From Candidatus Woesearchaeota archaeon (GTDB taxonomy: Archaea; Nanobdellota; Nanobdellia; Pacearchaeales; GW2011-AR1), in contig CAYRXU010000001.1 in NCBI GenBank assembly GCA_964428325.1, forward strand, positions 42,842-106,841: a stretch of DNA of 64,000 nucleotides, written 5' to 3'. Under the pieces are notes generated by a model. It did not search any database. It saw only the letters and a list, made by a program, of their open reading frames with translations, and had not been told where the DNA came from. Positions 26,864 through 64,000 of the stretch are shown here, in pieces. Each line of letters begins with the position of its first letter. Position 1 is the first letter of the stretch. The translations under genes and the position numbers were made by a program.

Positions 26864-27346
26864 ATGGTTAAGTTTGACTTTCAAAACCTCCCATCTTCTG
26901 TTTTTTCTAGATTGCGCAATGATTATGGTTCAAGTAACAAAGTAATAGAACTAATAAATCGTGGTGATATTGAATATCGCGAGGGCGAGACTAGACAAGA
27001 GGTGCGTATGTGGGGAGGAAGACTTGCTTTTGCCTTGGCTCCAGGGCAGCTTATAAGCTGTTATAGATCCGATTTACTCGATGTTGAACGGCCAACGTAT
27101 CAACGCCTTGCCGAACTTCTGTCTCTAGGAGAAAGTCATGCTAATGGTAGGCACTTGAATCATTTAAGAAGAGGATTTATAGTTGAATATGATGATAGGT
27201 CAAGACAAGAAATAGAGCGGATTGCAGGTCTACCGATATCTCGGAGCGTTCGAGTTCGCCATGAGATAGGAAAGATTGTAGACCATAGCACAATGTTTGA
27301 AGCGATTTGGAAAGTTGCCGTTAAACCCCTAATATCTATCTCTTAA
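26864..27346 (+). CDS. Hypothetical protein
   Basis: 160 aa with no recognisable domain. Confidence 0.35.
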   Translation: MVKFDFQNLPSSVFSRLRNDYGSSNKVIELINRGDIEYREGETRQEVRMWGGRLAFALAPGQLISCYRSDLLDVERPTYQRLAELLSLGESHANGRHLNHLRRGFIVEYDDRSRQEIERIAGLPISRSVRVRHEIGKIVDHSTMFEAIWKVAVKPLISIS

Positions 27347-27392
27347 CGGTTTACTAAACCTTTAAAAGCTGTTTTTTACTGTGTTTTCATAT

Positions 27393-27464
27393 GGGAGTGT
27401 AGCTCAGTGGGAGAGCGTTCGACTGAAGCTCGATAGGTCGGGGGTTCGATTCCCTCCACTCCCA
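27393..27464 (+). tRNA. tRNA-Phe(GAA)
   Basis: Acceptor GGGAGTG/CACTCCC, D-arm GCTC-AGTGGGA-GAGC, anticodon loop CTGAAGC, T-arm TCGGGGGTTCGATTCCCTC. Confidence 0.8.
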
Positions 27465-27495
27465 TTTCTGGCGACGTTACGTATTTATAGCAAGT

Positions 27496-28782: not shown

Positions 28783-28783
28783 T

Positions 28784-30400: not shown

Positions 30401-30555
30401 TTAGTGGACCTCAATGGGACAACCCTGCAAAAAATCAAAGCATAGTATCTCAGAATGACATCATAGCGTTTAATACCAGCTGGAGTAGCAGTTACAATCT
30501 GCAAAGATATATTTTCTCTATAAATCAGACAGGGCAATGGATAAATAGCGAACAA

Positions 30556-31491
30556 GTGCTATTCAGCGGCAAGAACAATGTATCAACTAATGTAACTAGA
30601 ATAACTGCCTCTCAAGGCACCACGGTGGAATGGAAATTTTACGCACAAGACATATATGGTACCTGGAATGTAACAGACATACAGACTTTTGTTGTTGGCG
30701 GAAATAGCGGCACCTTAAGCGCTATGCTAATATCCCCTACTGGATCTAACAACCAACCTGCTAACCAAACCTTCGTCCTACACGCTAACGTCACATGCTC
30801 AGGTTCCGGAGGAGCTAGCTGCGGTAGCGTCAATGGGACATTGCTCTATAACGCAACTTCAGCCAATCCTTCAAATAATATAACTGGAGGAGGAAATTTC
30901 AACACTCCTTTCTACGCATTGCAGAATAACCCTCTTGCCTGTGGAAGCATGACTTCCTCAAGTGCTCCTTGTGCGCTGAACTGGACCATAAATACCACGG
31001 GAAATATAGGCAGCACATGGGGACTTGCTGTTAACTTTAGCTCGACCGATAGTGGCGTGAGTGCTTCACTTACGAATACGACCAATATAACTATTATTGA
31101 TGCCTCGCTAAGCATTACGATTTCAACTACTCTGCAGAATGTGAACTTTGGAAGTAACCTTAATCCTGGAAGCTACAATAATAGCGCAGTTAACAACTCG
31201 AATAATGTTTACAATATAACTTGCGGATATCTCGCAGGTAACTGTAACATCTCCATCAAGGCGAATGATGAGCTTGTTGCAGGCATAACTCGCATAGGGG
31301 CGACTAATGTAACTTGGAATCAAGCGAATACCATTATAGGGTCTAAAAGATTGTCTCTGGTTTACCAAGTTATCAATCTAACCCTTTCAAATTTGGCCAC
31401 CCAGCCCATCTACTTCTGGCTGGACATTCCGAATGGAACAGTTGCAGGAAATTATGTAGGTAACTTTACTATACAAGGACAACCGAATTAA
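30556..31491 (+). CDS. Secreted protein, paralog of the 31516 gene; the frame is open upstream to 30367 (possible frameshift fusion with upstream gene)
   Basis: GTG start given by the ORF track. Shares the FGSNLNPGSYN and C-terminal FWLDIPNGTVAGNYVGNFTIQ motifs with the next gene. Confidence 0.45.
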   Translation: MLFSGKNNVSTNVTRITASQGTTVEWKFYAQDIYGTWNVTDIQTFVVGGNSGTLSAMLISPTGSNNQPANQTFVLHANVTCSGSGGASCGSVNGTLLYNATSANPSNNITGGGNFNTPFYALQNNPLACGSMTSSSAPCALNWTINTTGNIGSTWGLAVNFSSTDSGVSASLTNTTNITIIDASLSITISTTLQNVNFGSNLNPGSYNNSAVNNSNNVYNITCGYLAGNCNISIKANDELVAGITRIGATNVTWNQANTIIGSKRLSLVYQVINLTLSNLATQPIYFWLDIPNGTVAGNYVGNFTIQGQPN

Positions 31492-31515
31492 ATTTATAAA
31501 GGAGCAAGCGATAAG

Positions 31516-32133
31516 ATGGCTATGAAAAGAGCGAAGAGGGGTAGTGTGAATACTATGCACTATATGGTGCTACTTCTTGCGGTTGTGATTGTTGCTCTTG
31601 CAGTGACCTTTCTCGTATCGCATGATAGCCCTCCTGTCATTACAGGTTATGCTACTTCGCAAGTAGGTAACTTGAGCGCCAGTATTGCGACTTATCTCTC
31701 GTGTACTTGGAGTAATGATGCCCTTTCTATTAGTTTTGGAAGTAACCTTAATCCTGGAAGTTATGACATTAACGCTACTCAAAACTTTAATCTTACTACA
31801 TTTAATAACACATTCTACAACGTTACCGTTGACACATTCAGTAATGTTGCTGCGAATATTACCGTAAAGGGAGAAAATCTGGTATCTGGCAGTAATATCA
31901 TCGGGGTTACTAACATTACCTGGGCAAGTAACGGTACACATGCAAATGGAACAAATATGATTAGCGGTAATGGAATTGTGTTAAATACTACGTTCAACAT
32001 TGGCAATGCTGTTGGAGTAGCACGCAGCGTTGGGAGTACTACTCACTTCAGATTCTGGGTAGACATTCCAAACGGAACGGTAGCAGGAAGCTACACAGGT
32101 AACTACACTATGCAGTGTGCAGGAGCGACATAA
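31516..32133 (+). CDS. Secreted protein, paralog of the 30556 gene
   Basis: Signal peptide. Shared motifs FGSNLNPGSYD and FRFWVDIPNGTVAGSYTGNYTMQ. Confidence 0.45.
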   Translation: MAMKRAKRGSVNTMHYMVLLLAVVIVALAVTFLVSHDSPPVITGYATSQVGNLSASIATYLSCTWSNDALSISFGSNLNPGSYDINATQNFNLTTFNNTFYNVTVDTFSNVAANITVKGENLVSGSNIIGVTNITWASNGTHANGTNMISGNGIVLNTTFNIGNAVGVARSVGSTTHFRFWVDIPNGTVAGSYTGNYTMQCAGAT

Positions 32134-32723
32134 TGAAATATATTGTACAAATGAGCATGATCAGCATCTTATGTCTAGTTTTTGTTATGCATGGAGTCAT
32201 GGCAGATGTTGGCGTCGGCATTTCGCCTACGAAGGTGGTGCTCCAATTTGAAAGTGGAAGAGAAAGCCAGTTTTCGCTTCTTGTTTTCAATTCAGGAGAT
32301 AGTGACCTTAAGATATCGCTTTCTGCCGAAGGAGACATAGCCGAGTTTGTGAAGATTTCGCCTACAGAAGAAAACATTGAACCAGAACCTCGTCCGCATG
32401 CATTACCTATCAGAAATGGAGAGAATTTCGTAGTGACATTTGATGCCCCTCGCGTCTCACGACCTACTAAATATACTGGCACAATAGCTGCTGTTGGAAC
32501 ACCTGGGGAAGGATCTCAGTTCGGCGGAAGTGTTGGTGTGGCTACACAAGTTGAGATTACAGTTGTCCCTTCTGAATCATTGTTCCAGCGCATACCTCCA
32601 GTTTATCTTTATGTTGCAGCAGGCATTGTTGCCCTCGTAGTTATTGTATTTGCCCTGCGCAGAATGCACATGCATATTAGCTTTGGGTCTGAAACAAAAG
32701 TGCCTTCTGAAGAGAGGCCATAA
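32115..32723 (+). CDS. Hypothetical protein with signal peptide and C-terminal TM anchor
   Basis: N-terminal hydrophobic segment and a C-terminal TM (VYLYVAAGIVALVVIVFAL) followed by a basic tail. Confidence 0.4.
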   Translation: MCRSDIMKYIVQMSMISILCLVFVMHGVMADVGVGISPTKVVLQFESGRESQFSLLVFNSGDSDLKISLSAEGDIAEFVKISPTEENIEPEPRPHALPIRNGENFVVTFDAPRVSRPTKYTGTIAAVGTPGEGSQFGGSVGVATQVEITVVPSESLFQRIPPVYLYVAAGIVALVVIVFALRRMHMHISFGSETKVPSEERP

Positions 32724-32744
32724 AATCAAGCGGTGTGATGTGAC

Positions 32745-34628
32745 ATGGTGAATACGTCACGCGCTATTGGGGTTGTTCTTGTCCTTACGGTTATGGTAGT
32801 GCTTACTCTTCTGCCTAGTATGCCAACGGGTTTCTTTGTTGGCGATTTTAGGGTCCTTGTTGGAGTGAATGAAAGCGATATAACTAATAACACTGAGCCT
32901 CCTTCACCGAGTGGAGGCCCTAGTGGGGGAGGTGGAGGCGGCGGTGGAGGTGGAGGAACTATGGCGACGCCTTCCTTTGAAGTCACTCCAGGAATTATTG
33001 TTGAAAATCTTCGCCAAGGTATGGGGAGAACCATCCCGATTACGGTAAAGAACCTTTATAGCGATCAGCTTATTGTGCGTACTTCCTTGAACAACTTGAG
33101 TGACGTTGCTGTCCTGCATCAGGATGAGATAGAAATTGCTCCAAATGCTTCTTATGTATTCTTTATGGATATATTCGCTACACTTGACACTAAAGCTGGA
33201 ACTTATATTGGCAAGTTGGTTATTGACGATTTGTCAGGGGTAGATAAAGTGATAGGTGTTGTAATTGGTGTTCGTGAGCGTAGTTCGCTCTTTGATATTG
33301 TTGTGTCAGTGCCCCCAGCTTATGAGAGCGTTACGCCAGGTGCTACGTTGCTTGTTCAGGTCGATCTTGAAAATATAGGTTTGCGTGGCGATCCTGTTGA
33401 TGTTCCACTTACGGTAACTGTTATAGATCCTGATGGAAATGAGATAATTGAATCTATTAAGAAAACGGTTGCAGTGAGTACTTCGTATAGTACAGTCCAA
33501 GAATTGTCTATTCCAAGCTATGCGCCTGAAGGATTGTACATTGTAAAGGCCTCTATTGTGTATGGAAATAATGTTACTGTTGAAGCATATGACATCTTTG
33601 AGGTAGATGGTAGCTTCCTTCTCCATAACCAGTCCATGATAGTGGCTACAGTTATCCTTGGAGTTGTTCTTGTTAGCATTATTGGTGCAGGCGCTTGGTT
33701 CTTCAGATTGCAAAATATGCAGATAGCTCGTATTGAGAAGATTGAGCGTAAAAACTCTGTAAGTGATAGGGTCTTGGCAAGAGAGTTACGTCATTATCCC
33801 GAAATAATGCGACACAGTAAGGCTGTTGCTCGAGGTGTGCACCCGACAAGAGCATTTGTGTTAGTGATGTTTGCGGCCTTAGCTATTCTTGTTGCTGCGC
33901 GATTGAATGACACTCCCCTCACAGGAAATGTCATTGCCCTCCTTTCTCCTGACGTTACTCTAGACTTGCCTTGGAATCTCATCATATTGTCTATTGTAGC
34001 ATTTGCACCAGGACTCCTGATCTTCATTTATGCATTACGTAACCGAAGCATATTCTCCACTCATCTTGCTATATTTTTCTTCTTTATGTCTGCTCAGAGC
34101 ATAGCTAGATTCTTTGCACTAGCATACCCTGACCCTTCACTCTTCTTCGTGCACAGAATATTCCTGGCAGGATCTTCAGTTTTTGTACTCTTGGCGCTTG
34201 CCTCAATTGGTGTGCGCACTATAACCAGATTGAAGATACCGATTGTCTTTGCAGTTGCAACGGTCATCTTTGCGTTTATCGACGCTTATTTGCTTGGAGG
34301 TCTCCTTGGAGATTACGATCATCCTTTCCTTATGATGCTCACGAGTCAGCTTGTTGCGGCACTAGGTTTGGCATTTGCAGCTTACGGATTTGCACGATAT
34401 GGTGGGCGTCTATCGTCATTGGGAAGATGGATTCTCGTTGTAGCGTTTGCGATCGGAGCTATCCTTACTGAAACTCGGAGTCTTCTCGCCTACTTCGGAT
34501 TTGCTTCTAAAGTTCCTCTAATTGTAGCAGCCATTGCAATAGCAATTGCAGTAGGATGGATTGCTTGCGCTTTGGCAAGTAAAAAAGATGATACATCGTC
34601 CGAATCTTTAAAAACTTCGGCAAAGTAG
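32745..34628 (+). CDS. Membrane protein: N-terminal TM, poly-Gly linker, extracellular beta-rich domain, C-terminal polytopic (~8 TM) domain
   Basis: A G11 run at the linker, then LYIVKASIVYGNNVTVEAYDIFEV-type beta segments. The C-terminal 300 aa are highly hydrophobic. Confidence 0.5.
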   Translation: MVNTSRAIGVVLVLTVMVVLTLLPSMPTGFFVGDFRVLVGVNESDITNNTEPPSPSGGPSGGGGGGGGGGGTMATPSFEVTPGIIVENLRQGMGRTIPITVKNLYSDQLIVRTSLNNLSDVAVLHQDEIEIAPNASYVFFMDIFATLDTKAGTYIGKLVIDDLSGVDKVIGVVIGVRERSSLFDIVVSVPPAYESVTPGATLLVQVDLENIGLRGDPVDVPLTVTVIDPDGNEIIESIKKTVAVSTSYSTVQELSIPSYAPEGLYIVKASIVYGNNVTVEAYDIFEVDGSFLLHNQSMIVATVILGVVLVSIIGAGAWFFRLQNMQIARIEKIERKNSVSDRVLARELRHYPEIMRHSKAVARGVHPTRAFVLVMFAALAILVAARLNDTPLTGNVIALLSPDVTLDLPWNLIILSIVAFAPGLLIFIYALRNRSIFSTHLAIFFFFMSAQSIARFFALAYPDPSLFFVHRIFLAGSSVFVLLALASIGVRTITRLKIPIVFAVATVIFAFIDAYLLGGLLGDYDHPFLMMLTSQLVAALGLAFAAYGFARYGGRLSSLGRWILVVAFAIGAILTETRSLLAYFGFASKVPLIVAAIAIAIAVGWIACALASKKDDTSSESLKTSAK

Positions 34629-51188: not shown

Positions 51189-53009
51189 TTATTTGCCGAT
51201 TTCACGCAGCTTCCTGAGCGTCTCTTCCATTTCTTTATCAATTCCCGAAGCTGGCTGGCGAGGTTGCATTGGCATCTGAGGACGACGCATAGGCATCACT
51301 GGAGGAGAGCTCGAAGGAGGGAATGGAGGTCTGCGTTGTTGTGATATAGGTGTTGAGGAAACTCCGCCTTGGCGTCTCTTGAATAGCCAGAGTTGGATCT
51401 TTTGGCGATAGATTATTGCTAAAGCTACAATCGCGATTAGCACGAGAAGAATGATTATCCAGATAATCCAGCTTGATCCATTTGAGGATTCTTCTGTCAA
51501 AGGTATGCAACAGACATCACCAGATAGAGAACATTGCTCACTGCTTTCAGTTTCTGTGTCTGGATCACAACTAAGACTGCATGTACCTCCTGCTTGTGAA
51601 CAAAGATCATCGTTTGTAGCGATAGGAGTACAACGTTCGAGGCAACATGAGCCATCTGCAGCTTCTCTTTCAGAACCAGAACATTGTTCGTTTGACGCAC
51701 AGATTCGACCATTGAGAGTTGAACAAAGCTCGCGTTGTGGGGCGACTGAACAGCATCTCAAGGCACCAGAACAAGCAAACTGAGAGAGAGGATTGCCGCC
51801 TGCGGTTCGGCACACTAGATCAGATTGGACACAGGCATAACCTGGATTTACGGCCAAACAGCTTTCGACAGTTCCTGAACCACTACCGGATGAACGAACA
51901 GCGCGTGGCCATCCAGCATAAAGAAGGAAAGAGGTGTCTCTAAGATTGTTGCTGTTCCAGCAACCGCTTGTACCTTGAACGTTGAATAGATATCGCTGCG
52001 CATTGGTTGTTTCAGCAATAGACTTGCCTTGAAGAGCTAGAAGAGCAAGTGCAGTATCGTAGAATTTGTTATAGGGTGTTGATGGGGCTTCCCAGAATTG
52101 AGAATTTCTCTGGGATTGGACGATAGAAGAATAGGCGTCTTGGCTTGTTGATAGCTTGTAGATGAATGCATCCGAGAGGAAGCGCTCGTTATCTGGTGAG
52201 AAGGCGATAAGGTATGGGATATATTGAGCCATATCGTGTCCTGTTTCGTCTAGAGCGAGTGCTGCCCACAAAGTACCTTCGTAATCACACTCATTGGTTT
52301 GAGCAAAGCAGCGTGATCGGATAGATTCAGTCGTAGTTCCTGAAGATGAAGCAGAATTAGCTGTTGGTGAAACGTAGATAGTATCTGAACCGCTCTTTTG
52401 GTATAGCAATGTCGTTATGAAATCCTTGTTACAAGAAATTTGGAATGATTGTGTAAGACAAGAAGGCGATATTTCGAGCCAGTAGCCGTCTGGGTTGACA
52501 TTGAGGCAACTGCCACCGTTGCCTGAAATTCGCATGTCATCTCCGATTGTTATGGATTGCTCATTGCCGGTGTAGGTTAATGTACATGTTGAAGACTCTT
52601 GATTTTGAATATCGATCTCAAGAAACCATTGCAAACCTGTTGCAGGAACACTACGTGAAAGAAGATAGTTCTCTGCGCTGTCAGTATTCTTACCAATAAG
52701 ATCGTAGGCAAGAAGTGCTTGTGCAGTGTCCCTAAGGCGACAACCTGCTTGAGGCCAGCACGTTGTGTTGCCTGACGTGCGCTTTTCAGCGTCGATTTTT
52801 TGTTCAGCTTTTGCGTTGCTGCCAAGAGCTAGTATGGAGAAGGTTGCCTCTTCAAGAGATAACTGAGCAGATGTGCGATTAGCAATTAGGTTCTCTACGC
52901 ATTGGTAGGCGCGTGAAATATGTGACTCATCAGTTTCGTTGGTTGCTGCAGCAGCAAGGGGTACAAGAGTTAAGATAAGAAACGCAAAAATCCACACACC
53001 CTTTTTCAT
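51189..53009 (-). CDS. Cell-surface protein: alpha/alpha-toroid-like repeats, two Cys-rich modules, TM anchor, Pro-rich cytoplasmic tail
   Basis: Signal peptide. Repeats resembling the prenyltransferase/terpene-cyclase fold (LLAYDLIGKN, WAALALDETGHD, DTALALLALQGKS). CSTLNGRICASNEQCSGSEREAADGSCCLERCT. TM WIIWIIILLVLIAIVALAII. Confidence 0.45.
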   Translation of the reverse strand: MKKGVWIFAFLILTLVPLAAAATNETDESHISRAYQCVENLIANRTSAQLSLEEATFSILALGSNAKAEQKIDAEKRTSGNTTCWPQAGCRLRDTAQALLAYDLIGKNTDSAENYLLSRSVPATGLQWFLEIDIQNQESSTCTLTYTGNEQSITIGDDMRISGNGGSCLNVNPDGYWLEISPSCLTQSFQISCNKDFITTLLYQKSGSDTIYVSPTANSASSSGTTTESIRSRCFAQTNECDYEGTLWAALALDETGHDMAQYIPYLIAFSPDNERFLSDAFIYKLSTSQDAYSSIVQSQRNSQFWEAPSTPYNKFYDTALALLALQGKSIAETTNAQRYLFNVQGTSGCWNSNNLRDTSFLLYAGWPRAVRSSGSGSGTVESCLAVNPGYACVQSDLVCRTAGGNPLSQFACSGALRCCSVAPQRELCSTLNGRICASNEQCSGSEREAADGSCCLERCTPIATNDDLCSQAGGTCSLSCDPDTETESSEQCSLSGDVCCIPLTEESSNGSSWIIWIIILLVLIAIVALAIIYRQKIQLWLFKRRQGGVSSTPISQQRRPPFPPSSSPPVMPMRRPQMPMQPRQPASGIDKEMEETLRKLREIGK

Positions 53010-55476: not shown

Positions 55477-55576
55477 TCTTTCTTAGACCTCTTTGATTTT
55501 CTTATTTGCATAAATCGAGAGTATTACTTTGTATTATCAGATAGATTTAATAAGATAAAGTATATTTTGTAATATA

Positions 55577-55723
55577 ATGAAAGAGAGAGTTTCTGCAACT
55601 ATAGACCCTGTCACAAGTAAAGTGCTGAAAGATATTCTCAAAAAAGGAAGATATCGCAACCAGTCGCATATTATCGAGGAAGCCATCAAACTACTCGTGG
55701 AGAGGGAGAAACATGAGAAGTAA
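55577..55723 (+). CDS. Ribbon-helix-helix (CopG-like) small DNA-binding protein (below ORF-track size cutoff)
   Basis: A 48 aa ORF, MKERVSATIDPVTSKVLKDILKKGRYRNQSHIIEEAIKLLVEREKHEK, with a beta-strand then two helices typical of RHH. Its stop overlaps the start of the next gene. Confidence 0.4.
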   Translation: MKERVSATIDPVTSKVLKDILKKGRYRNQSHIIEEAIKLLVEREKHEK

Positions 55724-56477
55724 CAGGGGCCAGATAGCAATCTTCGTTATTGCTTCGCTTATCATTGTGGCTATGATTGTTATTGTGTTGATTGCTCGTG
55801 GTGGGCCTAACATTCCCCTCCCTGGAGAAGCGTTCAGTCCAGATAGCTATCTTTCATCGTGTGTACGAGACGTTGTTAATACTGAGAGTGCAGTTATGAT
55901 GAAACAAGGAGGATTTGTTGACCCAAGAGATTATGCAAGTTATAATAACGAAAAAGTTGCTTATGTTTGTAAGAACGTTAACTATTATGAACCATGCGTA
56001 AATCAGTACCCTCGTTATGTTGAGTCTGTACGACTTGAGCTTCTAAGAAATGTGAAGGAGCAAGTTAAGACTTGCCTCGATGCGCTTGATGCTGAACTTC
56101 AAAGACAACAATATAATGTTGAGCGTGTGCCTGACCCTGTTGTCCGTGTAGATTTGCAGGAAGATAATGTTGTTGTTGAAAGCGAGGTGGCTATGACCCT
56201 GGCCAAGAGAGGAGTTAGCCAGCAATATGACACTCTAAGCACTAAAGTGCGCGTGCCTCTCTTTAATCTAGCAACAGTGGCTAATGAAATTGTACGGCAA
56301 GAGAGCGAATTCTGTTACTTTTCTAATGAAGGCTTCAGCTTACTCTATCCTGATTTCGATATACGAAGGGATATGTTACAAGAAGGTACAAAGATATATA
56401 CGATAAAGCATACTGTCAGTGAAAGTGTTATGAATATCGCCATACGTGGTTGCGTTATACCGCAGGGAGTTGGATAA
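55713..56477 (+). CDS. N-terminally anchored extracytoplasmic protein (module A partner)
   Basis: TM IAIFVIASLIIVAMIVIVLIA. Paralog of 60301..61098, sharing a Y..C.....Y.PC pattern. The stop overlaps the next start (TAATG). Confidence 0.45.
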   Translation: MRSNRGQIAIFVIASLIIVAMIVIVLIARGGPNIPLPGEAFSPDSYLSSCVRDVVNTESAVMMKQGGFVDPRDYASYNNEKVAYVCKNVNYYEPCVNQYPRYVESVRLELLRNVKEQVKTCLDALDAELQRQQYNVERVPDPVVRVDLQEDNVVVESEVAMTLAKRGVSQQYDTLSTKVRVPLFNLATVANEIVRQESEFCYFSNEGFSLLYPDFDIRRDMLQEGTKIYTIKHTVSESVMNIAIRGCVIPQGVG

Positions 56478-59400
56478 TGAAAAAGACGATTGCGTGGGGC
56501 GAAATGTTTTTGCTTGTTTGTGCTAGTCTTGCTTTCGCTTACATTGTACATGAGAGCGATAGTGCATTTGGAAGCGCCATCCCCGTGAGAGAGGAGAGCG
56601 AACTGGTGAAGATCTTGCGAGCCGCATTTATCGGTTTATTTTCATATGGCCTTGTATCTGCAGCCGATGAAGGATTATGGACGTGCCCTCAGAATACCGA
56701 TGGGACTTTGTGTCAAGAGTACCCTGCGCAAGTTTGCAATTCAGTGTGCGGGGGTACGTGTTTCCCAGGATTAAGACGGGACTTTGCTGATTGCGCTCTT
56801 GGAACATGTATAGATCCTGCGCAAGGAACATGCTTAGGAAGTACGCCTCGTGCAGCATGTACGGCGCAGGGTGGACAGTGGGACTCTCGTGCCGTGACTG
56901 AAATAGCAAGTTGCCGTCCAGGATGTTGTGTTGGGGCAGACCAAGCACTCTTCAGGACAGAGCAACAATGTAACGTATTGCGTTCAAGTTTGGGCATACC
57001 TTTTGAATTTAGGCCCGTGACAAGCGAGCTTGCATGTCTTGCACTTGCCAAACCTAAGGAAGAAGGTGCTTGTGTACTCAATACTCAAAACGAAGAAGGT
57101 AAATATGCTTGCGTGTTTACAACGCGAGAGAGTTGTAATAGCCGTGGGGGAACGATGTACGGAGGTATGCTCTGTTCAAATCCTCAGCTTAACACATCTT
57201 GTACGCGACAAGCGCGAACATCATGTATGCCTGGAAAAGATGAAGTTTACTGGCTAGACTCCTGCGGTAATCGAGAAAACATTTATGATATCAATCGGGT
57301 GCAGAGTTGGAATAGTGGCCTTGTGCTTGCTAAAAACGCGAGCTGTGTACTTGGCTCTGTTGTTAACCCTATAACGCATCAAGCATCTTGTGGTAATTGC
57401 AATTATCTTGGAGGAAGTAAGTGCGGCACACCTACAAGTAAAGACGCTAAACCTTCTATCGGGAATTACGTTTGTCGCGATCTTTCATGTGTGGATGAAA
57501 CAGGAGCAAAGCGAAAGAATGGCGAAAGCTGGTGTTCATTTGAAAGCAAGATTGGAGTCGAAGGTACAGGCAATGCATTACGCAGCGTTGATGTTCCCGG
57601 AAGCGAGCATTCTCGTAAGGTTTGTTTGAATGGAGAAGTGCGAACAGAGCCATGTGGTAGTGCACGTAATGGTATTTGCGTTGAAAATCGAGACGAACAG
57701 ATAAAATTCTCTTCTGCTGCCTGTCGCGCTAACCAGTGGCAGTTATGCGTTGAAGCGAATAATGCGGCAGATGGTATCGATGACCCTGTTGCTGCGGCTG
57801 CTGCGGTAAAAGATGCATGTGAAGAACATACTGATTGTGTGTTGAAGGGAATTGATTTGACTGGGGGAAGAGGAACGTTTAAGTTCAATGTATGTACTCC
57901 TCGCTATCCGCCCGGATTCGATTCGCAGAGCGACGCTGGTGTTGAAAATGCCAAACAGTTGTGTGGTCTTGCTACTGCTGAGTGCAAGTATGTGACTGTG
58001 AAGGGTCTATTTGGCAGCGGCAAGAAATACAACGTTGTGTGCAACCAACCTGCTGGAGCAGAAGCGATGAACAATCTCTGTATGAGTCTTGGTGATTGTG
58101 GGGCTAGCGCTAACGTTGAAGGCGATGTTACAACCTCGGGATTCAAAGTTAAGTCTAATCGTGGACAACCGCCGGCTCTTAGTACAGCTTACACAAACGC
58201 ACTCAAGTTACTTGCAACGCCTGTTCGAGGACAGAAAGTTGCTCCGTTGAGCGAGGGTGAGCTGACAGAACTATTCGGATTGCAAAATCAAGTTGGAGAT
58301 CCGCAGAGTAGTTCGGGACAGGGTGCGCAGTTGCAGCAGCTTGCCATGATCAGCGGTGCGCTTGGGGCTCTTGCGGCCTATGGGGCTTACAGCGGATGGG
58401 GCTCGAGCGTATTCGTTACAAGTCAAACATTGCCTGCAGGGTTTGTCGGACCTCCCGCCCCTATTATGCTTAACGCGTTTGTCGGAGCAGCTGCAGGTGC
58501 GCTTATTGGCGCTGCAGGCGTGGCATATCTTCTCAATGCGTTAGGTATCAGCGAAGGTCTGCCTCCTGCAGTCACTTACGCGCTTATAGCAGGAGGAGCG
58601 TTTGGAGGATATGCCCTCGGAGGTAATCTAGTATCAAGTTCTTTCGCGAGTAGTACGTTTGGAGTTGGACTTACAACAGGGATTATTGCCATTGTTGTGA
58701 TAATTGTCATTATTGCAATTTTCGCATTCTTGGGCATCGGTAAGAAAAAGGAGACCAAGATAACCTATCAGTGTTTGCCATGGCAGCCACCTATTGGAGG
58801 AGCGAAGTGTGGTGAATGTGGTGCTGATGGAAAACCATGTACGCAGTATCAATGTCATAGTCTAGGACAGGCATGCAAGTATGTAGCAAATAGCGCAGAA
58901 GGTTCGTGCGTGAACAGTGCGCCAAATGATGTTCTTGCACCATTTATATCTCCTGACGCAAGTGTGCTGCTTTCTGGTTATCGTTATGAACAAGTATCCG
59001 AAAGAGGATTTATACTCAAGAGCGGGGCGTCAGATGGATGCGTGCCGCGCTATACGAACATCAAAGTCGGTATAAGTGTAAATGAACTCTCGCAGTGTAA
59101 ATTCTCAAATGTACATACTGATAATTATGATAGTATGCCTTCATACTTCCATGCGCCTAATGGACGTGAAGAAAATGCATTCAGGCGTAATCATACCTTG
59201 AGCTTCAATATCATGGGCGAGGAACTGATTGACGCAGAGCAGCAGCTTGATGCTGAATTTGATGATGAAGAAGGAGAGTCTGCATTACATTTGAATGAAT
59301 TGTTCGCTCCCGATCAGAGCGGGAATGTTAATCTCTACGTCAGATGTATCGATGTAAATGGGAATGGAAAGACAAGTGCGGAGTACAACATTAATTTCTG

Positions 59401-60301
59401 CGCCTCTCAGGGGCCGGATAGAACCGCTCCTGCAATAAACGGTTTCATTCCAGCCACTCCAGCTTATAGCTCGTATAATGCGACTGAACAGAAAGTCTCG
59501 TTCTTTACTAACGAACCTGCTGAATGTAAGTGGGACACACAAGATAGCGCATATGAAAATATGATGCAAAGTGCAAGTTGCGCTAATGTCGCTGCAGATG
59601 CGACTCCAAGCGGATGGTATTGTAATGCAACATTGCCGCTGTCATTCGCAGGGACAGATCAAGAGACATTCTACTTCCGATGTATGGACCAACCTTTTGC
59701 TAACGCAACTGACAGGAACACTAACCAGCAAGGCACAAGTTATATTGTGAGAAAGACACTTACGCCGCTACGAATTGTAAGTGTTGATCCTCAGAATAAG
59801 GATATTGTAACTAACGGTCTTCCTGCGATTACAGATCTCAAGGTAACAACAGGTGGTGGTGCGCCTGGTACGACGCGACAGTGTGAATTCCAGTTTGGAG
59901 ATAGATATATTCCATTCTTTGAGACAGGCAGCGACAATCACAGGCAGCCTAATCTAAGATTCTTCAATGTAGGAGCATATAATATCCCTATACGCTGTAC
60001 CGATAGTGCAGGCAATAGTGTGACAGGCAACTCACAGTTCAACATAAGCGTAGATAGCATGGGGCCACGCATAACGCGCGTTTACAACAATAACGGGCTC
60101 GTCGTTGTGACGAATGAGAATGCTCGTTGCGCATATTCGCTTTCAAGTTGTAGTTTCGCATTTGTAAATGGAACATTAATGAGCGGAGAGTCGCGAGTGC
60201 ATAGCAGTTCGCTCAGCGGAGATTCTACTCAGTATGTCATATGCCGAGACAGATTTGAAAACCCAAGTGCATGTGTTGCCGTACGGAAGGGAGGACTTTA
60301 A
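56477..60301 (+). CDS. Giant (1274 aa) cysteine-rich secreted/membrane protein (module A)
   Basis: Signal peptide MKKTIAWGEMFLLVCASLAFA. About 60 Cys in the N-terminal 650 aa (SCMPGKDEVYWLDSCGNRENIYD, ASCGNCNYLGGSKCG, YVCRDLSCVDETGAKRKNGESWC). A central Gly/Ala-rich multi-TM region (58300–58760), then a C-terminal ~500 aa Cys-containing beta-rich ectodomain. Confidence 0.55.
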   Translation: MKKTIAWGEMFLLVCASLAFAYIVHESDSAFGSAIPVREESELVKILRAAFIGLFSYGLVSAADEGLWTCPQNTDGTLCQEYPAQVCNSVCGGTCFPGLRRDFADCALGTCIDPAQGTCLGSTPRAACTAQGGQWDSRAVTEIASCRPGCCVGADQALFRTEQQCNVLRSSLGIPFEFRPVTSELACLALAKPKEEGACVLNTQNEEGKYACVFTTRESCNSRGGTMYGGMLCSNPQLNTSCTRQARTSCMPGKDEVYWLDSCGNRENIYDINRVQSWNSGLVLAKNASCVLGSVVNPITHQASCGNCNYLGGSKCGTPTSKDAKPSIGNYVCRDLSCVDETGAKRKNGESWCSFESKIGVEGTGNALRSVDVPGSEHSRKVCLNGEVRTEPCGSARNGICVENRDEQIKFSSAACRANQWQLCVEANNAADGIDDPVAAAAAVKDACEEHTDCVLKGIDLTGGRGTFKFNVCTPRYPPGFDSQSDAGVENAKQLCGLATAECKYVTVKGLFGSGKKYNVVCNQPAGAEAMNNLCMSLGDCGASANVEGDVTTSGFKVKSNRGQPPALSTAYTNALKLLATPVRGQKVAPLSEGELTELFGLQNQVGDPQSSSGQGAQLQQLAMISGALGALAAYGAYSGWGSSVFVTSQTLPAGFVGPPAPIMLNAFVGAAAGALIGAAGVAYLLNALGISEGLPPAVTYALIAGGAFGGYALGGNLVSSSFASSTFGVGLTTGIIAIVVIIVIIAIFAFLGIGKKKETKITYQCLPWQPPIGGAKCGECGADGKPCTQYQCHSLGQACKYVANSAEGSCVNSAPNDVLAPFISPDASVLLSGYRYEQVSERGFILKSGASDGCVPRYTNIKVGISVNELSQCKFSNVHTDNYDSMPSYFHAPNGREENAFRRNHTLSFNIMGEELIDAEQQLDAEFDDEEGESALHLNELFAPDQSGNVNLYVRCIDVNGNGKTSAEYNINFCASQGPDRTAPAINGFIPATPAYSSYNATEQKVSFFTNEPAECKWDTQDSAYENMMQSASCANVAADATPSGWYCNATLPLSFAGTDQETFYFRCMDQPFANATDRNTNQQGTSYIVRKTLTPLRIVSVDPQNKDIVTNGLPAITDLKVTTGGGAPGTTRQCEFQFGDRYIPFFETGSDNHRQPNLRFFNVGAYNIPIRCTDSAGNSVTGNSQFNISVDSMGPRITRVYNNNGLVVVTNENARCAYSLSSCSFAFVNGTLMSGESRVHSSSLSGDSTQYVICRDRFENPSACVAVRKGGL

Positions 60302-61098
60302 TGCGAAAGCGTTATAAAGAAATAGACGCATCTATCGTCATGGAAAAGAGAGGACAGGTTGCATTCTTCGTCATTCTCGCAGTTGTGATTGTTGGAGTGT
60401 TTGCGTTGCTTGTTGTCTATCCACGCATTAGCGTTTCTACTAACGAAGCAAACCCTTCTCAGTTCTTACGTGATTGTCTTGAACCTTCTATTGATGAAGT
60501 CTTGCCTGAGATTATGATGCATGGAGGATATAGACAACCTGCACCTTATGTGCTGTTCGAGGGAGAAAGAGTGCAGTATCTGTGTTATACTGCTGAAGAT
60601 TATCAGCCTTGTATAGTACAGCAGCCTTTGCTAGTAAATCATGTAGAGGGAGAGATAAAGCGTTCAATTGAGCCACGTGCGCGAGAGTGCATGCAAAACG
60701 TTGTAGAAATATATGAGGGTCAAGGCTATCAGGTTTCTGCTGCGGCCGTGACAGTCAATGTCTCTCTAGAGCCGCAAAAGATGGAGATATTTTTCGCGAC
60801 ACCTTTGACTCTTACACGTGAGGGCGCTCAAACGTTTAGAAGCGTTTCATTTACCAAGTCCAGCGAAGCTTATGACTTGCTGATGATTGCTACAAGCATA
60901 GTCGACTTTTCATCTACCTTAGGAGACTCTGAAACATTGAATTATATTCAGTTCTACCCTGATCTGAAAATAGAAAAACTCAAAAAGGAAGGAGATACGA
61001 TATACACATTAACAAACGTGGTGACTAACGAACAATTCAGATTTGCGACGCGAAGTCTTGTCTGGCCAGCAGGGTATTCAGAAGGGGCAGTTGCATGA
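60301..61098 (+). CDS. N-terminally anchored extracytoplasmic protein (module B partner; paralog of 55713)
   Basis: TM VAFFVILAVVIVGVFALLVV. ATG 60301 overlaps the stop of the giant gene (TAATG). The track start (60271) is an in-frame alternative. Confidence 0.45.
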   Translation: MRKRYKEIDASIVMEKRGQVAFFVILAVVIVGVFALLVVYPRISVSTNEANPSQFLRDCLEPSIDEVLPEIMMHGGYRQPAPYVLFEGERVQYLCYTAEDYQPCIVQQPLLVNHVEGEIKRSIEPRARECMQNVVEIYEGQGYQVSAAAVTVNVSLEPQKMEIFFATPLTLTREGAQTFRSVSFTKSSEAYDLLMIATSIVDFSSTLGDSETLNYIQFYPDLKIEKLKKEGDTIYTLTNVVTNEQFRFATRSLVWPAGYSEGAVA

Positions 61099-62609
61099 GA
61101 ATAACGTTACTCGTTATGATTGCATTTATTGCAGTAGCAAGTGTTTCTCTAGTAAGCGCAGCGGAAGCTACGGTATGTTGTGAAAGAACGACCAATGGAG
61201 CTTTATGCCAAAACGTTCCGGCAGCAGCATGTGACCCTTCTTCGCGACAAGTGCCAACAAGTTGCGAGTCAACATCATATTGTGGACTTGGAACGTGTTA
61301 CGACTCAAATGAAGGCACTTGTTTGGATAATACTCCCCAACTTGTGTGCCAGGCAAACGGAGGAGTTTGGAGTGCTGAGAGGCCAGCCCAATGCAATTTA
61401 GGATGTTGTGTGCTTGGAGATCAGGCTGCTTTTGTTTCCCTTGTGAGATGTAAAAAGCTCTCTGCCTCGCTCGGACTGAAGACAAACTATGACACGAGTA
61501 TAAACTCTGAGATCGCTTGTGTTGCACGCGTTCAGCAGCAAGATAGAGGTGCGTGCGTGTATGAGTTTGAATTCCAAAAGACATGCAAGTTCACAACAAG
61601 ATCGGAGTGTGCAGGATCAACATCAAGCCTTAACGGCAGTATTGGCCAAGGAACTTTTCATAAAGATAAGCTCTGTTCTGCTGAAGAGCTCGGTACGATT
61701 TGCGGACCTTCACAGAAGACAAGCTGCATGCCTGGAAAAGATGAAGTGTATTTCTTAGACACGTGTGGCAATCCTGCTAATATTTACGATGCGTCTAAAG
61801 CACGCGATAAAGAATATTGGACTAATGTAAAAACCAAGAGTGACAGCTGTAATCCCCTCGATCCAAACTCTCGCAGCGCAAGCTGTGGAAATTGTAATTA
61901 TCTCCTGGGGAGTGTCTGTAGGACCAGCACAGTAGGAACAAGACCAACTTATGGTAATGCTATTTGTGCCGATCTCTCTTGTGTGGATGAAGATGGCCAG
62001 AAGAGAAAGCACGGAGAGAGCTGGTGCTTGACAGATAGCGTCAGAAATGAAGAGAATAGTGTGGGCTCAAGATTCTTCAGGCGTATTTGCATGAACGGAG
62101 AGGTTGTTACTGAGCCATGTTCTGATTTCCGAAATGAAGAGTGTGTACAAGATAAAATAGAGACGAGCGCTGGAAGCTTCTCCCAGGCAGCGTGCAGGGT
62201 TAATAGATGGCAGGACTGCCTCGCACAAACTGAAAAGATTGACTGTGAGAACAGCGACAGAAGAGATTGTAAATGGAGAGAAGGAGTAACCTTAGGCAAT
62301 ACGACCATCAATGGAGTATGTACTCCTAAGACTGCACCAGGACTTAATTTCTGGAGCAGTGAAGAAAGCAAGGTTGTTTGCGGTGTGGGGAATAAGATAT
62401 GTGTTGTAAAATATGAGAAAGGATTATTTGGTGGAGAGTCGTGTGTCGACAATTGTGAATGTTTGACCCCTGGATGGGAGAAAGATTACGGGGAAGTATG
62501 CTCTTCTCTTGGTGACTGCGGTGCGAAAGTCAATTATGCAGGCAAGTTGGGACTTAAAGACGGAATACGCATTCTGATAGATGGAAAGAATGCCAGCTCA
62601 CAAAGATAG
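61095..62609 (+). CDS. Cysteine-rich secreted protein (module B; paralog of the N-terminal half of 56477)
   Basis: Signal peptide. Conserved blocks SCMPGKDEVYFLDTCGNPANIYD, ASCGNCNYLLGSVCR, AICADLSCVDEDGQKRKHGESWC. ATGA overlap with the upstream gene. Confidence 0.5.
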   Translation: MRITLLVMIAFIAVASVSLVSAAEATVCCERTTNGALCQNVPAAACDPSSRQVPTSCESTSYCGLGTCYDSNEGTCLDNTPQLVCQANGGVWSAERPAQCNLGCCVLGDQAAFVSLVRCKKLSASLGLKTNYDTSINSEIACVARVQQQDRGACVYEFEFQKTCKFTTRSECAGSTSSLNGSIGQGTFHKDKLCSAEELGTICGPSQKTSCMPGKDEVYFLDTCGNPANIYDASKARDKEYWTNVKTKSDSCNPLDPNSRSASCGNCNYLLGSVCRTSTVGTRPTYGNAICADLSCVDEDGQKRKHGESWCLTDSVRNEENSVGSRFFRRICMNGEVVTEPCSDFRNEECVQDKIETSAGSFSQAACRVNRWQDCLAQTEKIDCENSDRRDCKWREGVTLGNTTINGVCTPKTAPGLNFWSSEESKVVCGVGNKICVVKYEKGLFGGESCVDNCECLTPGWEKDYGEVCSSLGDCGAKVNYAGKLGLKDGIRILIDGKNASSQR

Positions 62610-62639: not shown

Positions 62640-63287
62640 TTACTGTCTGGATACAATCTCAAAAGTCCTGCTACTTACTGTATTACCATCAATTGTCCCG
62701 ACAACACGATAACTTCCAGGAGCAAAGTCGTTAGAGTTAAAGTTCAAACCGCTATCGAGCGCTGCACTCCCAGAGAAAGCACTGCCGTTTGAGTATACCT
62801 TTTTTCCATTTGAGTCGTAAATAGAGATATTGCATACGCTATTAGGTCTGTCTGGCGCGAAGAAATTTGTCCCGTCTGACTTTTTGAACCATCCGTCATT
62901 TTTTAATGCGGGGCCGGCAGGATTAACGAATGTAGCTGCCAAACCTATATTTCCGCCTTGAAAGAAGACTGCAGGATTGTCCCGCTTCTCTCCAGAAATA
63001 TCGGCCATTGAAAGAGATGTCGGGTCTCCGTCACGAGCAGCGTCTACTGAATCACATAAGAGAATAATGTTGGACAAAGATCTTGATCTTGGGGTGCTTG
63101 CCTGTCCCCTTTGATAATTTGCCACTTCATAATCATGCATAGCTGCTCCGAATATAGCTCCTGCGGCTGCCATGCGCGGATCGCGTTGCTGTAGTGAAGC
63201 ATATTGGATAGATGGGCCGCAGCCGTTTAGTAGAGTGCTTGCTCCTAGAATGCTGCCAAGACTTGCTGCAAACGTGCCTTTATTCAT
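62640..63287 (-). CDS. Secreted hypothetical protein
   Basis: Signal peptide. Contains a GWFKKSDGTNFFAP motif shared with the downstream plus-strand partial gene. Confidence 0.4.
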   Translation of the reverse strand: MNKGTFAASLGSILGASTLLNGCGPSIQYASLQQRDPRMAAAGAIFGAAMHDYEVANYQRGQASTPRSRSLSNIILLCDSVDAARDGDPTSLSMADISGEKRDNPAVFFQGGNIGLAATFVNPAGPALKNDGWFKKSDGTNFFAPDRPNSVCNISIYDSNGKKVYSNGSAFSGSAALDSGLNFNSNDFAPGSYRVVGTIDGNTVSSRTFEIVSRQ

Positions 63288-63420: not shown

Positions 63421-64000
63421 ATGCAAAGAAAGAGGATGAGTAAGGTCTTACAGTATGTTGCATGTGGCGAAATAAGTTTTATTGTTCTTGCGACTTTTGC
63501 CGTCGCTATGATTCTTGCGCAGACGCACACGGTCAGTGCAAATCATATCCCTGGGCATACGGGAATGGGTCCGCCAGTAGACCTGGGAAAAGTCTCTTCC
63601 ACACAAAGCCCAACTCGATCATCAGGGTGGTTTCGTAACGCTGATGGATCAAACTATTTTGCACCCAAGGATGGGGCTGCTGCCTCAGCACCTGGAGCAG
63701 CAGGGAGTTCCGAAGGGCCCTTGAGTATAGTTAATGATATTTATAGCGGAAAGACTTTCGACGGTGGAATCGCAGGACATTTAGTCTCAGCGCTTGCCTG
63801 GGCTACAACTGCCTATCTTGCAGTCAAGTTCATTGCTCCTCTGTTTGGAGTCGATGAGAAAACGACTAACGCTCTCGCTGCTGCAGTAGGTCTGGGGGCT
63901 GGCCTTGGTCGTGCTACTTATTTTGCCATAGGCGAGGGTGGAAAAACGGTCTTTGGTTCCGCTGCGCAAACCGGTTTTGTTGTTGGTGTTGCAGTAGCAG
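63421..64000 (+). CDS. Secreted/membrane hypothetical protein (partial, runs off window end; not in ORF track)
   Basis: The frame is open from ATG 63421 to the window end: MQRKRMSKVLQYVACGEISFIVLATFAVAMILAQTHTVSA...SGWFRNADGSNYFAP...; Gly/Ala-rich hydrophobic C-terminal part. Confidence 0.4.
   Translation, partial: MQRKRMSKVLQYVACGEISFIVLATFAVAMILAQTHTVSANHIPGHTGMGPPVDLGKVSSTQSPTRSSGWFRNADGSNYFAPKDGAAASAPGAAGSSEGPLSIVNDIYSGKTFDGGIAGHLVSALAWATTAYLAVKFIAPLFGVDEKTTNALAAAVGLGAGLGRATYFAIGEGGKTVFGSAAQTGFVVGVAVA

What the first reader, a model, noticed from the sequence alone, without database searches (positions are those of the whole stretch)
55577..62609. Tightly coupled 5-gene operon: RHH regulator, then two copies of a TM-protein + giant cysteine-rich secreted-protein module
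The five genes are joined by overlapping start and stop codons (TAATG at 56475–56479 and 60299–60303, ATGA at 61095–61098). The first is a 48 aa ribbon-helix-helix ORF. The other four form two modules. Each module is an N-terminally anchored ~260 aa protein followed by a cysteine-rich secreted protein (1274 aa, then 504 aa). The two cysteine-rich proteins share long, near-identical Cys-spacing blocks: SCMPGKDEVY(W/F)LD(S/T)CGN..NIYD, ASCGNCNYL.GS.C and (Y/A)(V/I)C.DLSCVDE.G.KRK.GESWC. The giant copy also carries a Gly/Ala-rich multi-TM hinge (GxxxG-like) and a second ~500 aa ectodomain. I cannot place any of the four structural proteins in a known family. The architecture, a regulator plus a duplicated two-component surface module, suggests a dedicated cell-surface or host-interaction system. 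That would fit a small-genome, possibly episymbiotic archaeon. It could also be a membrane-fusion or adhesion apparatus.
Basis: seen in the sequence. Interest (0 to 1): 0.7.

Follow-up and report, generated by a model that had tools for sequence, protein, structure and literature searches.

The report
Pilin-anchored cysteine-rich surface gene cluster
This is a real operon, conserved across a whole lineage of tiny DPANN (Pacearchaeota-type) archaea, that pairs pilin-like membrane proteins with very large disulfide-rich surface proteins of no known fold; it is most likely part of an undescribed cell-envelope or attachment apparatus.

Summary
The five ORFs, their overlapping junctions, the two paralogous pairs (26% and 39% identity) and the shared Cys motifs are all present, so this is not an assembly artefact.

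The window comes from a DPANN archaeon (relatives are named Pacearchaeota, Woesearchaeota or Nanoarchaeota).

Three points change the reading:
- **The giant protein is a fusion.** It joins the 504-aa Cys-rich "A" domain to a membrane/Ig-like "B" module. B also exists as a separate gene that starts at 63436. Each module is therefore pilin-like + A + B, and the operon extends beyond the reported end.
- **The gene order is conserved.** The order g2-g3-g4-g5(-B) recurs in about 80 species genomes. In the nearer relatives four more prepilin-like genes and the S-layer gene follow.

The A domain has 1614 clusters in the protein library, all 43 Cys conserved, and no match in Pfam, PDB or viral structures. 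The fusexin idea is not supported. A conserved palindrome, GTAWTAC-N3-GTAWTAY, precedes the RHH gene.

Best reading: a type-IV-pilin-anchored envelope or adhesion complex. No assembly ATPase or peptidase lies nearby, and function is inferred.

The parts
55521..55537 (.). Palindromic operator-like site GTATTACTTTGTATTAT (consensus GTAWTAC-N3-GTAWTAY), upstream of the TATA-like box
   Evidence: It is the only exact match in the 64 kb window (0.09 expected at <=1 mismatch). The same motif recurs upstream of the RHH gene in relatives: 2.65 sites/kb in the 210 nt upstream against 0.027/kb elsewhere in 75 loci.
55546..55553 (+). TATA-like box TTTAATAA, about 24 nt before the g1 ATG (suggests a leaderless g1 transcript)
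   Evidence: Read from the sequence. Relatives carry TTTAAATA at the equivalent place between two operator copies. Promoter function is inferred.
55559..55575 (.). Second, degenerate operator copy (right half-site GTAATAT intact) abutting the g1 start codon
   Evidence: Sequence. In L001 the equivalent copy is a perfect GTATTACTTTGTAATAT ending at the ATG.
55577..55723 (+). g1: 48-aa ribbon-helix-helix (CopG/Arc/ParD-like) regulator
   Evidence: Pfam RHH_1 E=0.003; TIGR02606 E=3.6e-5. JGI name for identical proteins. Conserved at this position in relatives.
55713..56477 (+). g2: 254-aa prepilin-like protein (MRSNRG|QIAIFVI..., class III-type signal) with an extracellular alpha/beta domain and 6 conserved Cys
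56477..60301 (+). g3: 1274-aa giant protein = N-terminal TM + A domain + B module
   Evidence: Exact sequence on record as 1274 aa. Orthologs of 1228-1303 aa sit in the same position.
56666..58156 (+). g3 A domain (aa 64-560), Cys-rich, paralog of g5
   Evidence: 39% identity to g5, E=1e-89. 49-53% identity to orthologs.
58334..58741 (+). g3 Gly/Ala-rich hydrophobic region (aa 620-755), ending in a strong TM (736-754) followed by KKKETK
   Evidence: Hydropathy. Conserved consensus with 2-4 hydrophobic helices and a basic cluster in both the g3 and stand-alone B families. Topology unresolved.
58766..60298 (+). g3 C-terminal B ectodomain candidate: 7-Cys knot (CLPWQPP...CxxC...) plus about four Ig-like repeats (Y.RC.D..GN)
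   Evidence: 36.7% identity over 578 aa to the stand-alone 710-aa protein of L001. All 21 Cys are present in >=92% of 38 sequences, and C855/C975 are present or absent together. Big_13 matches 30 of 36 family members.
60301..61098 (+). g4: 265-aa prepilin-like paralog of g2 (..MEKRG|QVAFFVI..)
   Evidence: E=4e-29 to g2. hhalign probability 100%. [KR]GQ[VILM] in 72 of 81 orthologs. The C201/C247-equivalent Cys pair is lost together.
61095..62609 (+). g5: 504-aa secreted A-domain protein (Sec signal ...VSAA|EA, 43 Cys), the most conserved envelope gene of the cluster
   Evidence: 1562 homologs, the best 120 at 57-100% identity. All 43 Cys conserved in >=90%. 1614 clusters at 50% identity. AF2 pLDDT 79.5 with no PDB or BFVD fold match.
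62640..63287 (-). 215-aa lipobox-like (LLNGCG) protein between g5 and the B gene; membership in the system is uncertain
   Evidence: The weakly similar gene in L001 is on the + strand.
63436..64000 (+). 5' part of a stand-alone B-module gene (signal/TM, then a Gly/Ala-rich hydrophobic region); it runs off the window end
   Evidence: Translation. 38% identity over 163 aa to the L001 710-aa B protein. tblastn map. The same gene was called on short contigs that carry the identical g5.

Best explanation
The locus is the front part of a lineage-wide cell-envelope gene cluster of Pacearchaeota-type DPANN archaea, built from type-IV-pilin-like proteins and very large disulfide-rich partner proteins.

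Proposed mechanism:
1. A small RHH repressor (g1) binds palindromic GTAWTAC-N3-GTAWTAY operators that flank the TATA box and autoregulates a translationally coupled operon. This step is inferred from motif conservation.
2. g2 and g4 are made as prepilin-like precursors. A class III (EppA/PibD-type) signal peptidase cuts between Gly and the invariant +1 Gln. This leaves an N-terminal hydrophobic helix that either anchors them in the membrane or inserts them into a short pilin-type fibre. The motif is shown; cleavage is inferred.
3. Each pilin-like protein works with a Cys-rich A domain (secreted g5, or the A part of g3) and a B module made of Gly/Ala-rich TM helices plus an Ig-like stalk. A and B must act together, because they are one polypeptide in g3 and separate genes in g5 plus the gene at 63436 (Rosetta-stone inference).
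4. Together with four further prepilin-like proteins encoded just downstream in relatives, these form a surface-exposed complex, analogous to a minor-pilin tip or pseudopilus complex carrying bulky adhesin modules. It would mediate attachment to, or contact with, a partner surface or the cell's own S-layer (inferred).
For: - Paralogous pairs and junctions verified.
- Gene order g2-g3-g4-g5(-B) is repeated in nearly all of 80 species-level loci; 237 candidate stretches in the species-genome collection encode a relative.
- Downstream genes p171, p305, p155 and p170 all have [KR]G[Q/F/D] followed by a hydrophobic helix.
- G6 and Q7 are near-invariant in the g2/g4 family.
- Experimentally studied M. 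maripaludis EppA substrates have KGQV/KGQI/KGQL sites and need +1 Gln (PMC4371748).
- The six small families resemble each other only in the N-terminal helix, as pilins do.
- Extracellular disulfide signatures: all 43 Cys of g5 conserved; all 21 Cys of the B domain conserved, with one pair present or absent together; one Cys pair lost together in g4.
- Ig-like Big_13 in the B domain.
- The A-B fusion versus split arrangement.
- Operator enrichment about 100-fold.
Against: - No pilus assembly ATPase, platform protein or A24 prepilin peptidase was found in the 64-kb window or within +/-10 kb of the cluster in about 80 loci. The single exception is one PilT-like gene in L065.
- Pfam class-III-signal and pilin models do not hit g2 or g4.
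- In the AF2 model the TM helix (5-28) is separated from the globular domain by a low-confidence linker, rather than forming the continuous alpha1 helix of canonical pilins.
- g5 is unusually conserved for an adhesin: 56-66% identity against 51-55% for primase in the same genome pairs. That fits a self-directed structural role better than host recognition.
- The basic cluster after the last TM of the B module would, by the positive-inside rule, put the Ig-like domain in the cytoplasm.
Confidence: 0.45

Rival explanations
1. A non-filamentous envelope scaffold. The class III-type N-termini only serve as membrane anchors, as for Sulfolobus bindosome sugar-binding proteins. The P-A-B complexes would be structural elements of the pseudo-periplasm that organise or anchor the S-layer, or otherwise maintain envelope integrity, rather than adhesins on a fibre.
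For: - g5 is the most conserved envelope protein of the cluster, at the level of primase and above the S-layer protein.
- The cluster sits in a housekeeping region next to PCNA and primase and, in relatives, a few kb from the S-layer gene.
- No assembly ATPase or platform gene lies in the locus.
- The g2 model has a flexible linker after the TM helix.
- Archaeal class III signals are known on non-pilin envelope proteins (PMC4371748).
Against: - Six different prepilin-like families in one cluster, some small (155-171 aa), is the typical make-up of a type IV filament or pseudopilus gene set.
- There is no detectable similarity to S-layer or SlaB-type anchors.
- S-layer adjacency is seen in only 16 of 46 loci with enough flank.
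Confidence: 0.3
2. An uptake or conduit apparatus. The prepilin-like proteins form a Com/T2SS-like pseudopilus. The Gly/Ala-rich (glycine-zipper-like) helices of the B modules form a membrane channel, so the system would import DNA or nutrients or bridge to a host cell. This would fit an auxotrophic DPANN lifestyle.
For: - Multi-pilin gene set.
- Conserved Gly/Ala-rich helices in both g3 and the stand-alone B protein.
- Literature reports of pili-mediated contacts and competence-type genes in ultra-small prokaryotes (PMC9938205) and of intercellular conduits in DPANN co-cultures (PMC11329633).
Against: - There is no ComEC-like, nuclease or ATPase gene in the conserved cluster.
- Channel formation is pure inference from composition.
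- In the one DPANN system imaged, the nanotubes originate from the host.
Confidence: 0.1
3. A membrane-fusion (fusexin/HAP2-like) or virus-derived entry apparatus.
Against: - No match to predicted viral structures.
- No relatives on viral contigs.
- The cluster is a syntenic chromosomal core locus, not a mobile element.
- g5 has no TM anchor.
Confidence: 0.04

Closest known systems
Euryarchaeal Epd-type type IV pili (Methanococcus maripaludis EpdA-E, processed by EppA); archaeal TFF 'system 1'
   Same: Several co-encoded prepilin-like proteins with a [KR]G|Q processing-site motif followed by a hydrophobic helix. Only the N-terminal helix is shared between families. System 1 is reported in some DPANN (bioRxiv 10.64898/2026.04.22.720090).
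   Different: No ATPase, platform or EppA gene lies in the locus. g2 and g4 are large (about 250 aa) with a novel three-unit alpha/beta domain. There is no +5 Glu. The genes are interleaved with 500-1300-aa Cys-rich proteins that have no counterpart in Epd loci.
Bacterial minor-pilin/tip complexes with bulky adhesins (GspI-J-K pseudopilus tip; FimU-PilVWX-PilY1; modular pilins PilB/PilC of Streptococcus sanguinis)
   Different: No sequence homology. The large partners here have their own signal peptides or TM helices and a different, disulfide-rich fold, with no PilY1-type beta-propeller. The organism is an archaeon with a single membrane and an S-layer.
Sulfolobus bindosome (class III-signal sugar-binding proteins plus Bas pilin-like proteins)
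   Same: Class III-type N-termini used on large globular envelope proteins. Small pilin-like helpers are encoded nearby (PMC4371748).
   Different: No solute-binding-protein fold or ABC transporter genes. The Cys-rich A and B proteins are unrelated.
Ig-like (Big_13/He_PIG-type) repeats of bacterial and archaeal surface proteins
   Same: The B-module C-terminus carries about four Y.RC.D..GN beta-sandwich-type repeats, and Big_13 hits 30 of 36 family members.
   Different: They are preceded by a unique 7-Cys knot and a Gly/Ala-rich TM region. The window's own copy falls below Pfam thresholds (part A).
Archaeal fusexin Fsx1 / HAP2
   Same: A Cys-containing archaeal ectodomain of similar size.

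Membership tests
Type IV pilin-like proteins (class III signal peptide proteins) - g2, g4 | Short basic leader ending in Gly/Ala, immediately followed by a hydrophobic stretch of about 20 residues (processing site N-terminal to the h-region) | tested here: met
   MRSNRG|QIAIFVIASLIIVAMIVIVLIA and MEKRG|QVAFFVILAVVIVGVFALLVVY. G6 and Q7 conserved in >=90%. FlaFind-type pattern in 55/65 (g2) and 72/81 (g4) orthologs.
Type IV pilin-like proteins (class III signal peptide proteins) - g2, g4 | +1 Gln, as in EppA-processed euryarchaeal pilins | tested here: met
   RGQI / RGQV here; KGQV / KGQI / KGQL in EpdB-E (PMC4371748 Table 1). The +5 Glu mentioned there is absent.
Type IV pilin-like proteins (class III signal peptide proteins) - g2, g4 | Pilin fold: a continuous N-terminal alpha1 helix packed on a beta-sheet globular domain | tested here: inconclusive
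Type IV pilin-like proteins (class III signal peptide proteins) - g2, g4 | Match to curated pilin or class-III-signal models (Pfam, NCBIfam) | tested here: not met
   No family at E<=0.1.
Type IV filament (TFF) system | Dedicated assembly ATPase, platform protein and A24 prepilin peptidase encoded with the pilins or elsewhere in the genome | tested here: not met
   Not found in the window or within +/-10 kb in about 80 loci. Presence elsewhere in the genome could not be tested with the sequence held.
Type IV filament (TFF) system | Signal-peptide cleavage and filament assembly demonstrated | not testable with these tools
   Needs N-terminal proteomics or cryo-EM on an enrichment culture.
Ribbon-helix-helix (CopG/Arc/MetJ/ParD) regulators - g1 | A beta-alpha-alpha domain of about 45 aa that matches RHH profiles | tested here: inconclusive
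   RHH_1 18.0 bits against a cutoff of 20.5 (E=0.003). TIGR02606 E=3.6e-5, below its cutoff. Orthologs are called RHH_1 (weak) or named Arc/MetJ-type.
Ribbon-helix-helix (CopG/Arc/MetJ/ParD) regulators - g1 | Palindromic or repeated operator in its own promoter | tested here: met
   GTATTACTTTGTATTAT at 55521-55537. The motif is enriched about 100-fold upstream of the RHH gene across loci. Binding itself was not tested.
Fusexin / HAP2 class II fusogens - g3, g5 | Three-domain class II fusion fold with a C-terminal TM anchor | tested here: not met
PilY1-type pilus tip adhesins - g3, g5 | C-terminal beta-propeller / vWA architecture | tested here: not met
Archaeal S-layer proteins | Homology to S-layer domains (for example S_layer_C) | tested here: not met
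   No hit for g2-g5. A separate S_layer_C protein is encoded downstream in relatives.
Bacterial Ig-like domain Big_13 - g3 C-terminus / B module | Profile match to PF19077 | tested here: inconclusive
   30 of 36 family members match. L001 B scores 33.4 bits, above the cutoff of 27. The window's own g3 C-terminus gives no hit at E<=0.01, so its membership rests on homology (36.7% identity).

The most novel reading that the evidence does not exclude
The cluster encodes a previously unrecognised, lineage-defining trans-envelope machine of Pacearchaeota-type DPANN archaea. A pilin-anchored, disulfide-rich complex would use its Gly/Ala-rich B-module helices to form a membrane conduit and its A and Ig-like domains to dock onto a partner cell. 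That would make it the long-sought attachment and exchange apparatus of these uncultivated episymbionts, built around a protein fold (the A domain) with no known relative.
Probability: 0.15. Interest if true: 0.85.

Novelty: new variant of a known kind. Interest (0 to 1): 0.6.

Why it matters
How Pacearchaeota and Woesearchaeota-type DPANN archaea build their envelope and contact other cells is essentially unknown, because none is cultivated. This work defines a syntenic gene set that can now be tested:
- six prepilin-like families;
- a Cys-rich protein family with 1614 clusters, no Pfam model and no structural neighbour;
- a membrane/Ig-like partner linked to that family by gene fusion;
- a candidate repressor with a candidate operator.

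The A domain is conserved as strongly as the primase. It is therefore a good marker and a good antigen candidate for imaging these cells. The fusion and split arrangement gives concrete predictions of which proteins interact.

Tried and rejected
- **Family scans.** Pfam and NCBIfam scans of all five proteins and their neighbours found nothing for g2-g5.
- **PDB by sequence.** phmmer and profile searches with g2, g3, A1, A3 and A4 gave only noise.
- **Viral origin.** No relatives on viral contigs.
- **AFDB fold search.** Unavailable.
- **Assembly artefact.** Rejected, since the paralogs are only 26% and 39% identical.
- **Alternative g3 start.** A start at the internal signal-like VKILRAAFIGLFSYGLVSAA was rejected. 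The N-terminal TM (x-A/G-L/F-F/G-E-I/M-x-L-L-V ... ES[ND]) is conserved in orthologs and in the stand-alone B family.
- **Assembly genes.** A motif search for secretion ATPase Walker A and the A24 GxGDxK motif in 1.5 Mb of loci gave only one PilT-like gene (L065) and chance matches.
- **Literature.** Searches on Pacearchaeota surface, pilin and Cys-rich proteins found no description of this cluster.
- **B-module topology.** Hydropathy and charge analysis remained ambiguous.
Full report
**Observation.** All five ORFs exist at the stated coordinates. The same protein sequences, with these starts, are on record in public collections. The junctions read TAATG (56475-56479 and 60299-60303) and ATGA (61095-61098), and g1 overlaps g2 by 11 nt. 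Each of g2-g5 is preceded by a GGAG/GGGAG motif complementary to the 3' end of the window's own 16S rRNA. g1 instead follows an AT-rich stretch with a TATA-like TTTAATAA about 24 nt upstream, which suggests a leaderless first gene. g2 and g4 are 26% identical (E=4e-29). g3 residues 42-551 and g5 are 39% identical (E=1e-89), and the quoted motif blocks are visible in that alignment. These are diverged paralogs, not an assembly duplication.

**Organism and setting.** The window carries archaeal 16S and 23S rRNA genes and housekeeping genes: proteasome, exosome, SBDS, enolase, AspRS, FttA, Rad50/Mre11, PCNA and primase. Every relative of g5 with a name is a Pacearchaeota, Woesearchaeota or Nanoarchaeota MAG. 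The locus is therefore chromosomal core DNA of a DPANN archaeon. No relatives occur on viral contigs.

**Architecture: three components, not two.** The C-terminal half of g3 (aa 655-1272) is 36.7% identical over 578 aa to a stand-alone 710-aa protein encoded just after the g5 ortholog in relative L001. The window has the same gene. It starts at 63436 and runs off the end (38% identity over 163 aa). The N-terminal TM of g3 and of this "B" family share a motif (x-A/G-L/F-F/G-E-I/M-x-L-L-V ... ES[ND]). So g3 is a B-type protein with an A domain (g5-like, aa 64-560) inserted after its N-terminal helix.
- Module 1 is g2 + g3 (A-B fused).
- Module 2 is g4 + g5 (A) + a separate B.

By the gene-fusion argument, A and B act together. 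This is an inference.

**Conservation.** The A-domain profile finds 1614 clusters at 50% identity (888 at E<=1e-30), in two length classes of about 500-600 aa and about 1200-1350 aa. A pattern scan of species-representative genomes gave 237 stretches that encode a relative. In the 80 loci fetched, a tblastn map shows g4 directly before g5 in 78. Upstream, g2-g3 is present wherever the flank allows, except in L040 and L080; in L087 module 1 is inverted downstream. B follows in 50 of 63 loci with enough flank. In the nearer relatives the order continues with four small genes (p171, p305, p155, p170), a divergent HVO_A0114-type regulator and an S_layer_C protein, while PCNA and primase lie upstream. 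For the window against L001 and L003, identities are:

| Protein | vs L001 | vs L003 |
|---|---|---|
| PCNA | 84% | 72% |
| g5 | 66% | 61% |
| primase | 55% | 51% |
| g4 | 50% | 49% |
| g3 | 46% | 44% |
| g2 | 41% | 42% |

The S-layer protein is 47% identical between L001 and L003. g5 is thus the most conserved envelope protein of the cluster.

**Prepilin-like proteins.** g2 and g4 begin MRSNRG-QIAIFVI... and ...MEKRG-QVAFFVI.... In alignments of 55-59 homologs, G6 and Q7 are conserved in at least 90%. A FlaFind-type pattern directly precedes the hydrophobic core in 55 of 65 g2 orthologs and 72 of 81 g4 orthologs. The four downstream families in relatives have the same kind of N-terminus:
- p155: [KR][GA]Q.K[IV]QQMAFV
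- p170: [KR]GQEE[IL]VGF
- p305: [KN]GFEFSFAWLF
- p171: [KR]G[QDF]

. M. maripaludis Epd pilins, which are processed by EppA, have KGQV, KGQI or KGQL sites and require +1 Gln (PMC4371748). Profile-profile comparison shows that g2 and g4 are homologous throughout (probability 100%). The other families resemble them only in the N-terminal helix (g2-p170 91% over residues 3-51; p171-p305 95.7% over residues 2-56). That is the pattern expected of pilins.

**The B module.** A conserved Gly/Ala-rich hydrophobic region ends in a strong TM helix and a basic cluster (KKKETK or KKEKKK). The sequence CLPW.PP..G..C..C follows immediately. All 21 Cys of the C-terminal domain are present in at least 92% of 38 g3 and B sequences, despite 32-53% overall identity. 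C855 and C975 are present together in 35 sequences and absent together in 3. Big_13 matches 30 of 36 family members, DUF4625 matches 17 and Y_Y_Y matches 8. Four Y.RC.D..GN repeats are visible. These features argue for an extracellular Ig-like stalk reached through a hairpin of 2 or 4 TM helices. The positive-inside rule argues for a cytoplasmic C-terminus instead. Topology is unresolved.

**Regulator.** g1 is a sub-threshold RHH match, and orthologs are annotated as RHH. Upstream of it lies GTATTACTTTGTATTAT (55521-55537), the only exact match to GTAWTAC-N3-GTAWTAY in the window (0.09 expected at <=1 mismatch). A degenerate second copy abuts the ATG. In relatives, two such palindromes bracket a TTTAAATA box. 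Site density is 2.65 per kb in the 210 nt upstream against 0.027 per kb elsewhere in 75 loci. Autoregulation by g1 is the natural inference, but binding was not tested.

**What is missing.** No secretion-type ATPase, platform protein or A24 peptidase lies in the window or within +/-10 kb of the cluster in about 80 loci. The single exception is a PilT-like gene in L065. Whether such genes exist elsewhere in these genomes could not be tested here. A 2026 preprint reports type IV filament "system 1" and Aap-like systems in some DPANN. No paper found describes this cluster.

**Interpretation.**
- **Preferred reading (about 0.45).** A type-IV-pilin-anchored surface complex. Processed pilin-like g2 and g4, plus four more downstream, carry or dock the A and B proteins. 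This is functionally analogous to minor-pilin tip or pseudopilus complexes with bulky adhesins.
- **Main rival (about 0.3).** The same proteins form a non-filamentous, bindosome-like envelope scaffold, possibly linked to the S-layer. The unusually high conservation of g5 and the absence of assembly genes nearby favour this reading.
- **Conduit or uptake role (about 0.1).** The Gly/Ala-rich helices could form a channel. This is speculative.
- **Fusogen idea.** Disfavoured.

**Novelty.** The pilin-like framing makes this a new variant of a known kind. The A-domain family and the A-B-pilin module itself are undescribed.

Noticed in passing
window 19523-22967: The 23S rRNA match spans 3445 nt for a 2987-nt Rfam model. 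About 450 nt of extra sequence (an insertion or intron?) must therefore lie inside the gene.
   Followed up: no
window 51189-53009 (-): A 606-aa type I membrane protein with a signal peptide, 28 Cys, a C-terminal TM and a Pro-rich tail. It has no Pfam match. It is conserved upstream of primase/PCNA in relatives (51% identity to the L001 590-aa protein) and may be a further envelope component of the same neighbourhood.
   Followed up: partly
window 24455-34628: A run of large + strand ORFs (644 aa with a GLUG motif, then 428, 544, 311, 205 and 627 aa) with no Pfam families. Some have signal-like N-termini. This may be another surface-protein cluster.
   Followed up: no
window 62640-63287 (-): A 215-aa protein with a lipobox-like LLNGCG and a weak T9SS-sorting-domain-like C-terminus (E 0.011). 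It is wedged between g5 and the B gene on the opposite strand. The weakly similar gene in L001 (23% identity, E 2e-4) is on the + strand.
   Followed up: partly
L065 2338-3444 (-): A 368-aa PilT-like secretion ATPase (Walker A GVTGSGKST) lies next to the g5 homolog in one 'Woesearchaeota' MAG contig. It is the only ATPase seen near the cluster in about 80 loci.
   Followed up: partly
L082, L040, L080, L087: Rearrangements of the cluster. L082 has the g2-g3 module in tandem duplicate. L040 and L080 have g4-g5(-B) without g2-g3 within 10 kb. L087 has module 1 inverted downstream. The two modules can therefore be separated.
   Followed up: no
L003/L025 5250-5477: An extra 75-aa basic ORF is inserted between g2 and g3 in one Pacearchaeota lineage. 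It is absent from the window.
   Followed up: no
L001 16746-17102 (-) and 17471-19909 (+); the same in L003: A divergently transcribed HVO_A0114-type winged-helix regulator and an S_layer_C protein follow the prepilin-like genes in the nearer relatives. This places the cluster beside the S-layer locus.
   Followed up: partly
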